Source: Saccostrea echinata (taxonomy: Eukaryota). From it: DNA of 64,000 nucleotides. Shown piece by piece: positions 9,847-11,911 of the stretch; the first letter of the stretch is position 1; every line of letters begins with the position of its first letter. The DNA lies in contig NW_026889803.1 in the NCBI RefSeq assembly GCF_033153115.1, positions 27,962,001 to 28,026,000 on the forward strand. The letters run 5' to 3'. The notes beneath the pieces are model-generated. The model was given only the letters and a program-made list of their open reading frames with translations, searched no databases and had not been told where the DNA came from. The position numbers and the translations under genes are program-made.

Positions 9847-10418
9847 CGTTCCCAAATTAAGGCCCATGGTATATACTATACCAGGAGAAGAGAAGAAAAT
9901 TTTCAAAGAATAAATGCATTTTCACTATATAATCAATAGGGCCCCTCCTTAACACCAAAACTCCTGACCCAAGGGTAATCAATTCACAAATTTTGAAGAG
10001 GCACCCTTGCTCATCATAACCATGCACTTAGTTTGCTAAATAGCAACGGGCAGAGAAGACGTTAATAAGTCTTTACAAAAGGTGTGTTATTATGAAAGAG
10101 TATTTGTTCATAAATTTGTACAGGTTTTACCACACCAAGCTAAAAGAAATATATGATAGACATGTTAACCTTAAATTGATTTTAAGCGCAATGAGTTAGG
10201 CAAGTTGTCTCTTTCTAATGATGCTCAACCCTCAAGGAGGTACCCCTGAAAGATAAAAACACAGATATTACCATAGACTTCAATGCTAAAAAGAAACACT
10301 CAAAACACTTTTGCACACCATATATACACTCTCCTTTAATTCATTCTGCACAATACAACATAAAAGCAAAATCACACTTCATCTGTGTCCATTCCAGAGC
10401 ATCCATACACCACTGAAT

Positions 10419-10652
10419 CCATTCTAGATCACTCAAGATTCAGTCTGCTCCAGATCACACATGATTCATATTCCAGATCATTCATGTTTCTGTTCCAAAT
10501 TGCTCAAGTTTCTATTCCATATCACTCAAGATTCAGTCTGTTCCAGATCACTCATGATTCCATTCCAGATCACTCATGATTCCATTCCAGATCACTCATG
10601 ATTCAGTCCATTCCAGATCACTCATGATTCAGTTCATTCCATTCATGATTCA
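10419..10652 (-). repeat. Tandem array of ~9 units of 22-26 bp in the putative distal TARDBP 3'UTR
   Basis: Plus-strand unit ccagatcactcatgatt(cagt)ccatt. ATTAAA on the minus strand at 10335-10340 is followed by a GT-rich tract. Confidence 0.8.
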
Positions 10653-11911
10653 ATTAATTCAATTTTTTCCAAATTTTCTCAATACACACTTCAGTCTAGA
10701 TTACATCTTTCAAGTTCTGTTCATTTCAGTCCAACCAATAATCCAATTACTTTTCTCATAATGGTCACACAGTGTTAAATAGTTTTACATACTGAAATAC
10801 AAATCTCAAAAAATCTATTTAGAAGTAAATACAATATCAGCATCAGAAAAAAATTAAGGTGAAATTTAAACAATTTAGAAAATTTTAGGCATCTGCTGCA
10901 TGTAGTAGGTTGCTAGGGAAAATATAGAAAGCTACTTTTCGTAAAAATTTACAACAAATGGGAATGCTGAAGGTAGATACACTGATTAACAATTTATGCA
11001 AATCCACACATAATATTTTATGTACATGTACATATTAAGATTTCTGATCATATTTAAGCAACACAAAAAAAAAAACAAACAAACTTGGAACCAAGTTCCC
11101 ATGTTAAAAATCTTATGAATTACTATTCTTTTAAACTCTGAAAGGATAAACAAGTTGTCGTGCTTAGCACTGATTTCTCCTCTGAAAGCACCACTTTAGT
11201 GAAGGTGAAACAACCTCTTTAAATGTATAAGTTAATATGCTATAGAGCAATGTGTTAATTAAAAGGTACAGTTTAGATGTCAGTTTGTATAAGTAATTTC
11301 TCTGAATGGACAATATAATTATGTGTGGTTAAAAAACTGTTAAACCTATGGTGCAAATTAACAAAAAGGATAAATATCATTTTGGAATAAGCAAAGTTCT
11401 AGAAACTGCTGTAGTGACCTTATAAATGGTTAAACTCTAGGGCTGGGATGATACAAGTAAAATGTGAAACAATACATCCTGGTACAATGACTGCAAATTC
11501 TGCTACATTCTGCACATTAAAATACTTTTTAGTTCAGTAATTCAACTTTACACTGATAAAAGCTTAGATTTTTTTTTCAATACTACCAAGTAATTTCCTA
11601 GAAAAAAAGAGAAAATAAAGTCTTTGATATTTTTTTTACGAGAGGAAAAATATTTGTTCAGGACTTTTTGTCTTTGGATTAAAAGAATTAATTTAACATA
11701 ACTTATGTATTGACTTGGCTATACATGTAATTTTTGATATACATTCAAAATATAGGAACAGATATATACTACAAGCAGTAGATGCATGGATCATAGAAGT
11801 CTGTCTTCCCATATCATTCCAGCCCTAATAAACACAAGGCTTCGCACTCTGCATATAAAAAAAAAATCAACACCACACTGACGCACACCAAACAATGTAT
11901 CCTCCCATACA

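What the first reader, a model, noticed from the sequence alone, without database searches (positions are those of the whole stretch)
10300..10660. UG/GAAUG-rich tandem array just upstream of the putative TARDBP poly(A) signal: candidate TDP-43 self-binding region
Seen: about 9 units that read AAUGGAAUCAUGAGUGAUCUGG in TARDBP sense, starting with UGAAUGGAAUGAA. They end ~80 nt before an AUUAAA (10340-10335) that is followed by a GU-rich downstream element. The array lacks the TE hallmarks of the other repeats here. Established: TDP-43 RRMs bind UG-rich RNA, including GUGUGAAUGAAU, and vertebrate TDP-43 autoregulates through a multivalent 3'UTR binding region that alters polyadenylation and splicing. 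Inference: a mollusc analogue built by tandem amplification, where copy number could tune TDP-43 dosage.
Basis: partly seen in the sequence, partly recalled or inferred. Interest (0 to 1): 0.7.

Follow-up and report, generated by a model that had tools for sequence, protein, structure and literature searches.

The report
Oyster TDP-43 self-control region candidate
The messenger RNA tail of one oyster TDP-43 gene carries a ten-unit repeat inside an exceptionally UG-rich 500-base block, which likely lets TDP-43 bind and limit its own message as it does in humans, although binding and regulation are untested and the nearby stop-and-polyadenylate signal is often read through.

Summary
The array is real: ten 21-26-nt units (10651-10420) in the 3'UTR of one of three oyster TDP-43 paralogs. 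It lies in RNA in 4 of 4 runs laid. It is the core of a 511-nt block (10800-10290) more UG-dense than any of 2,280 background windows, and its peak beats all 59 post-stop stretches of other genes; the flanks are UG-dense too. The AUUAAA has textbook anatomy and overlaps a GAAUGAAU motif, but all four runs read through it, so it is at most a proximal site. Beyond it lie two acceptor-like sites, and a donor-like AG|GT where one run's contig leaves the genome sequence. This layout resembles the human TDP-43 binding region, pA1 and exon 7. Against: no splice to those acceptors was seen, the units hold no long UG runs, copy number is equal in both haplotypes, a look-alike array exists at an unrelated gene, flies show no autoregulation, and other species' UTRs could not be read. 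Best reading: self-binding control region (0.45); neutral minisatellite 0.35. The scan earlier noted duplicated mollusc TDP-43 genes, not this element.

The parts
14572..14809 (-). TARDBP-like first coding exon (start codon at 14809)
   Evidence: sequence; RNA joint 13427-14572 in 4 of 4 runs
13252..13427 (-). coding exon 2 (NLS region, start of RRM1)
   Evidence: RNA joints in 4 of 4 runs
12898..13038 (-). coding exon 3 (rest of RRM1), ending at a GC donor
   Evidence: RNA joint 12570-12897 in 4 of 4 runs; sequence
11912..12571 (-). last coding exon: RRM2 plus low-complexity tail, stop at 11914-11912
   Evidence: ORF; same sequence as the end of P0243
12238..12246 (-). candidate internal donor AAG|GTAAAC just after RRM2 (phase 1); a second, AAG|GTCAGT, at 12118; use not seen
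   Evidence: consensus match 5 and 6 of 7; no joint
10290..10800 (-). UG-rich block in the 3'UTR, candidate TDP-43 binding region
   Evidence: 79 UG in 511 nt, 0 of 2,280 background windows as high; in RNA contigs
10420..10651 (-). tandem array, ten units of 21-26 nt, decaying to about 10370
10335..10357 (-). UGUA (10357-10354), GAAUGAAU (10346-10339) and AUUAAA (10340-10335): candidate proximal poly(A) signal, read through
   Evidence: bridged in 4 of 4 runs
10288..10313 (-). candidate cleavage CA (10313-10312) and GU/U-rich downstream element that doubles as a pyrimidine tract
   Evidence: sequence; inference
10170..10286 (-). candidate cryptic exon: acceptor-like AG at 10286 and 10246, short tail frame ending 10215, donor-like AG|GT at 10170
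   Evidence: the matching part of an X1 contig ends at 10170 with 76 unplaced letters; splicing not shown

Best explanation
The array is an old tandem amplification inside a 500-nt UG-rich block of this TDP-43 gene's 3'UTR, and the block likely acts as a multivalent landing site for TDP-43 that would limit the gene's own output. Shown: the block is in the RNA, is exceptionally UG-dense, ends on an AUUAAA with normal poly(A)-signal anatomy, and RNA runs past that signal. Inferred: TDP-43 from this gene or its two paralogs would load on the spaced UG and GAAUG motifs, cover the AUUAAA through the overlapping GAAUGAAU, and push transcripts past it. That would expose the acceptor-like sites at 10286 and 10246 and the donor-like site at 10170, giving retained, degraded or tail-less products as in vertebrates. 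The array would add valency; there is no sign that its copy number varies.
For: RNA contigs cover 12258-10575 and 10570 to about 10010. UG density: 0 of 4,680 and 0 of 2,280 genome windows; 0 of 59 post-stop stretches of homeobox and GPCR genes reach the 250- or 377-nt count. Flanks without the strict array hold 40 UG in 276 nt, about the top control value of 36 per 250. RRM aromatics F147, F149, F194, F221, F229, F231 and R171, D174, D247 are kept (choice of positions recalled). UGAAUG-type motifs are a TDP-43 class, and regions over 100 nt with dispersed motifs bind by condensation (PMC8445024, passages). The human order is binding region, pA1, then an acceptor exposed by read-through (PMC4937342, passages). 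X1's contig stops matching exactly at AG|GT, a context at 6 of 2,907 positions. Paralog L029 also has a UG peak, AUUAAA and two pyrimidine-AG sites; 6 of 600 random stretches pass that test. Orthologues of paralog L031 have annotated short isoforms in two oysters.
Against: No joint to 10286, 10246 or from 10170 is listed in 4 of 4 runs. No short isoform of this paralog among 15 listed of 68 cluster members, and no protein matches the tail frame. The longest UG run is three and exact UGAAUG occurs twice; (UG)3 binds at about 3 uM and (UG)1-2 not measurably (PMC3643599, passages). YG- and YA-type hexamer cover of the array is ordinary (620 and 765 of 4,680), and my AA-type set was chosen after seeing the sequence. 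The non-repeat flank's UG excess is explained by its G+T content (4,853 of 14,760 windows as high in observed/expected). Paralog UTRs show no significant alignment, the L029 threshold was set after seeing it, and 3 of 59 controls reach its UG peak. A look-alike array sits at a GPCR gene. K176 and N259 differ from the mammalian protein. Fly TBPH showed no autoregulation (PMC3605831, passages).
Confidence: 0.45

Rival explanations
1. A neutral minisatellite of a small dispersed family landed or grew in an A+T-rich UTR. The poly(A)-like and splice-like signals around it are chance features.
For: Arrays at C23 and C29 score 18 and 16 against this unit, while 200,000 random 23-mers reach at most 14. 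The C23 array is as UG-dense (0.152) on the strand opposite its GPCR gene. An AUUAAA or AAUAAA with a pyrimidine-AG behind it occurs in 165 of 600 random stretches. Minisatellites are common: 37 in 600 kb. Low haplotype divergence is not special: 75 of 331 nearby windows are as low.
Against: Only 1 of 74 minisatellite strands is as UG-rich, yet it lies in sense in the gene of a UG-binding protein. The flanks are UG-dense without the strict array. The block has 2 haplotype differences in 584 nt against 30 in 1,447 nt of the rest of the UTR.
Confidence: 0.35
2. The block is regulatory but serves other proteins, such as GGAA-binding hnRNP A/B or UGU-binding factors and the 3'-end machinery, and TDP-43 is a minor partner.
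For: The array has 10 GGAA against 2 exact UGAAUG; GGAA is the hnRNPA2 motif (PMC8445024, passages). The downstream UG-rich part has the make-up of an ordinary poly(A) downstream element.
Against: Most of the UG excess lies upstream of the hexamer, over 450 nt, and exceeds 59 of 59 control stretches.
Confidence: 0.15
3. The array works as an RNA structure or as a DNA element rather than as a protein-binding single strand.
For: Each unit holds the palindrome UCAUGA, and hairpins can be drawn.
Against: Folding energy equals that of shuffles (z = -0.16, 79 of 200 as good). No Rfam match in the array.
Confidence: 0.05

Closest known systems
Human TARDBP TDP-43 binding region (TDPBR) with pA1, intron 7 and exon 7
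   Same: UG-rich region of several hundred nt in the 3'UTR of the last coding exon, made of imperfect motifs, over a proximal poly(A) signal, with acceptors beyond it and donors inside the last exon after RRM2 (PMC3950720, PMC4937342, PMC3643599, PMC12987623; passages).
   Different: Here about half the block is a tandem array. pA1 is the major human site, while this AUUAAA is read through in 4 of 4 runs. No splice to the acceptors was seen, no binding is shown, and the animal has three paralogs. The human UTR sequence was not compared.
Zebrafish tardbp/tardbpl cross-regulation
   Same: Paralogous TDP-43 genes, with short versus full-length products made by splicing in the last coding exon (PMC3658164, passages).
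   Different: Shown by mutants in fish, where the reported sites are a UGUGU and a (GU)6. Here only anatomy and annotated short isoforms of a sister paralog exist.
Ordinary bivalve minisatellites (C23 23-mer, C29 21-mer arrays)
   Same: Similar unit length and shared core words.
   Different: They are longer (27-28 copies) and lie antisense behind a GPCR stop or in unannotated DNA. This one is short, more decayed, and set in UG-rich flanks.

Membership tests
TARDBP / TDP-43 gene | N-terminal domain, two RRMs, low-complexity tail with conserved helix region | tested here: met
   last exon 95% identical to P0121, which carries PF18694 and PF00076; alignment of P0243 to a mammalian TDP-43
TDPBR-type autoregulatory element | lies in the 3'UTR of the gene's own RNA | tested here: met
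   contigs of 4 of 4 runs with introns removed cover it; contigs are unstranded
TDPBR-type autoregulatory element | long UG-rich, multivalent region | tested here: met
   motifs are weak singly
TDPBR-type autoregulatory element | overlaps a poly(A) site that is really used | tested here: inconclusive
   anatomy canonical; read through in 4 of 4 runs, and contigs cannot show ends
TDPBR-type autoregulatory element | normally silent 3'UTR or last-exon intron that is spliced | tested here: inconclusive
   signals present; no joint listed; one contig leaves at AG|GT 10170; no protein record
TDPBR-type autoregulatory element | bound by TDP-43 (CLIP, EMSA) | not testable with these tools
   needs experiment
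TDPBR-type autoregulatory element | output falls when TDP-43 rises and the fall needs the region | not testable with these tools
   needs reporter or knockdown
TDPBR-type autoregulatory element | conserved across species | not testable with these tools
   no other mollusc genome is held; the metagenome scan gave 4 matches, the one read being bacterial-looking
High-copy dispersed minisatellite or transposon repeat | many loci genome-wide | tested here: not met
   18-mer only here; tandem cores at 1 other locus each; no hit in 600 kb
Copy-number-variable repeat (dosage knob) | unit number differs between alleles | tested here: not met
   same units, 1 substitution between 2 haplotypes; RNA contigs break in the array, so further alleles are unresolved

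The most novel reading that the evidence does not exclude
TDP-43 self-regulation through a UG-rich 3'UTR region, a skippable proximal poly(A) site and a cryptic downstream exon is older than the protostome-deuterostome split. Oysters run it across three paralogs; this gene rebuilt its binding region from a tandem repeat, and a splice from 12244 or 12118 to 10286 would give a short TDP-43 whose tail echoes the vertebrate sTDP43 tail (score 20, reached by 23 of 1,232 background acceptor peptides).
Probability: 0.15. Interest if true: 0.75.

Novelty: new variant of a known kind. Interest (0 to 1): 0.42.

Why it matters
TDP-43 autoregulation and its short isoforms are central to ALS and FTD biology. 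The papers read here describe them in mammals and fish, and one fly study found no autoregulation. A mollusc version would date the circuit to early bilaterians, or show that it arose twice. A binding region made of regular units would be a natural ladder for testing how motif number sets TDP-43 loading. If the array is neutral, this is an ordinary minisatellite in a UTR.

Tried and rejected
1) AUUAAA 10340 as the sole end: rejected, bridged in 4 of 4 runs. 2) The loose end at 10013 with an AAUAAA as the true 3' end: rejected; absent from the window and the two C30 loci searched and found once on contig C1. 3) C30 copy as a second gene: rejected as likely the other haplotype; 11 of 13 collinear blocks over 30 kb are 90-99% identical, 2 are 86%, and neighbouring homeobox hits are doubled too. 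4) RNA structure: no signal; Rfam gave 1 chance-level hit outside the array. 5) Sequence homology of paralog UTRs: not significant over whole UTRs (36 and 34 of 150 nulls; 21 and 13 of 60); the restricted tests (8 and 10 of 300) were post hoc. 6) Protein-level mapping of 8 short-isoform tails onto the three UTRs found nothing convincing. 7) A record of the predicted short tail: none (weak evidence by the tool's own note). 8) Purifying selection from two haplotypes: Fisher p = 0.003, but 75 of 331 overlapping windows nearby are as low. 9) Metagenome scan for relatives: 4 matches, 1 read and bacterial-looking, 3 not read. 11) Lower-depth contigs at 9143-9813 lie in a repeat mosaic and were not counted as UTR. 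12) Paper searches listed nothing on mollusc TDP-43 UTRs; only listings were seen and subscription journals are mostly missing.

Full report
Gene context. The minus strand carries a TDP-43 gene with four coding exons; three introns are removed in contigs of 4 of 4 runs laid (4 of the 24 runs listed; at most 3 samples, 2 studies). The last exon (12571-11912) matches the end of P0243, which its source names Saccostrea echinata TDP-43-like. The genome holds two more paralogs, at C54:47.91 Mb and C42:4.93 Mb, and a second copy of this locus on C30 that is likely the other haplotype.

The observation. TRF gives 10417-10631, period 22, 9 copies. By hand there are ten units of 21, 26, 22, 22, 26, 22, 22, 23, 26 and 22 nt from 10651 to 10420, then decayed units. 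The 26-22-22 rhythm and about 20% divergence suggest an old array (inference). It holds 40 UG in 250 nt: 0 of 4,680 windows from a 600-kb sample and 1 of 74 minisatellite strands reach that. The enrichment spans 10800-10290 (79 in 511; 0 of 2,280). Against 59 post-stop stretches of homeobox and GPCR genes (60 loci, 59 kept after the length and duplicate filter; a proxy for UTRs, median 1.3 kb), none reaches the 250- or 377-nt count and 1 reaches the 127-nt count. The flanks alone hold 40 in 276, but they include decayed units, and the truly non-repeat 81 nt owe their UG to G+T content.

Is it dispersed? The 18-mer core occurs 8 times, 4 per haplotype, all here. Tandem cores occur at one other locus each, C23 and C29. 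Their units score 18 and 16 against this unit versus at most 14 in 200,000 random draws (best period against single draws). C23 is therefore probably related and C29 borderline (inference from about 57,000 arrays extrapolated). This is a small family, not a genome-wide repeat.

Is it in the message, and where does the message end? Contigs cover 12258-10575, break inside the array, and continue from 10570 to 10006, 9983 and 10012 in X2, X3 and X5, where a high-copy repeat begins, and to 10170 in X1. All four bridge the AUUAAA. Depths of the bridging versus the upstream contig are 39.4/45.8, 18.4/19.3, 17.9/32.5 and 108.9/44.7; the tool warns that these are poor measures. The site still has canonical anatomy: UGUA at 10357, hexamer, CA 22 nt later, GU/U tract (anatomy rules recalled). 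Contigs cannot exclude partial use. GAAUGAAU overlaps the hexamer.

Splice anatomy. The last exon has two donor-like sites after RRM2, at 12244 and 12118, both phase 1. Acceptor-like AGs at 10246 and 10286 rank third and eighth of 51 YAG sites. From 10286 a phase-1 splice would read a 22-residue tail that resembles the vertebrate short-isoform tail seen in P0088; 23 of 1,232 background acceptor peptides score as well and 10 sites were tested in this UTR, so this is only suggestive. No protein record matches that frame, no short isoform appears among 15 listed of 68 cluster members, and no joint to these sites is listed. X1's contig stops matching exactly at AG|GT (10170) and goes on for 76 unplaced letters; AG|GT occurs at 6 of 2,907 positions. 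A splice to a distal exon and an insertion allele both fit; the letters were not seen.

Paralogs. Neither has a comparable array. L029 has a UG peak (31 in 250), then AUUAAA and its two best acceptor-like sites; 6 of 600 random stretches pass at a threshold chosen after the fact, and 3 of 59 controls reach its peak. L031 fails that test. Its orthologues have short isoforms on record in C. virginica (P0086) and M. gigas (P0268, P0269). The two M. gigas tails are two frames of one DNA stretch 38 nt apart, and their best matches fall at L031 1513 and 1557, in its UG peak; each match alone is not significant (91 and 39 of 120). UTR alignments between paralogs are not significant.

Can TDP-43 bind? 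The RRM aromatics and most contacts are kept; K176, G196 and N259 differ (positions recalled). The array has 7 GAAUG, 2 exact UGAAUG, 10 GGAA and a longest run of (UG)3. UGAAUG-type motifs and long dispersed regions are known binding classes (PMC8445024, passages), and the human region binds through imperfect repeats at about 100-260 nM, while (UG)3 alone is weak (PMC3643599, passages). Binding would need multivalency. The RNA is not more structured than shuffles.

Variation. Both haplotypes have the same units; the block differs at 2 of 584 positions versus 30 of 1,447 elsewhere in the UTR, but 75 of 331 nearby windows are as quiet. RNA alleles show substitutions in the array (lists cut). Copy-number tuning is unsupported.

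Known systems. In humans, TDP-43 binds a region spanning intron 7 and pA1, suppresses pA1 and exposes an acceptor (PMC3950720, first fifth of the text and passages; PMC4937342, passages; PMC12987623, passages and section 6; PMC13343711, passages). Zebrafish paralogs cross-regulate (PMC3658164, passages). Fly TBPH overexpression did not lower endogenous TBPH (PMC3605831, passages). PMC3418585 was not held. No supplements were read. Eight searches listed no paper on mollusc TDP-43 UTRs.

Verdict. Observation confirmed; interpretation partly supported. It likely works like the human binding region (0.45), but membership is not established, since binding, regulation, use of the poly(A) site and conservation are untested or inconclusive. 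A neutral minisatellite remains a strong rival (0.35). Interest 0.42.

Noticed in passing
window 12897-12572 (minus): Intron 3 is spliced from a GC donor in 4 of 4 runs. The annotated isoform P0241 differs by two residues here, which fits a GT donor and an acceptor each shifted by 4 nt.
   Followed up: partly
L031 1510-1590 (paralog on C42): Orthologues in two oyster species have annotated short TDP-43 isoforms that leave the last exon just after RRM2 and share a tail (P0086, P0268, P0269); the tail exon maps loosely to this UG peak.
   Followed up: partly
L029 2287-2737 (paralog on C54): UG peak followed by AUUAAA and two pyrimidine-AG sites 60 nt apart, the same order as in the window.
   Followed up: partly
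L003 about 1190-1861 (C23): A 27-copy 23-mer array begins in the last codons and stop of a 7tm_1 GPCR gene; the GPCR sense strand is roughly complementary to the TDP-43 UTR array.
   Followed up: partly
L006 1485-2067 (C29): A 28-copy 21-mer array sharing an 11-nt core with the unit here.
   Followed up: partly
window 1-30719 versus C30:35.243-35.271 Mb: The end of C30 duplicates this region in reverse at mostly 94-99% identity, likely an uncollapsed haplotype; it has an 812-nt insertion at window 9880 and lacks window 7957-9142.
   Followed up: partly
proteins P0005, P0033, P0046, P0064, P0021, P0034: Other mollusc-like TDP-43 records end in short odd tails after RRM2. P0033 ends in a tail that starts ALK, like the frame predicted from 10286, and P0005 lacks the middle of the low-complexity tail. 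Their DNA could not be fetched.
   Followed up: no
window about 3960-4260 (minus): A tRNA-like, SINE-type repeat with about 20 hits in the 600-kb sample; the label is by eye.
   Followed up: no
window 11911-11790 (minus): A second, short UG-dense patch directly after the stop codon (18 UG in 122 nt; 23 of 9,720 windows as high, but ordinary after G+T correction).
   Followed up: partly
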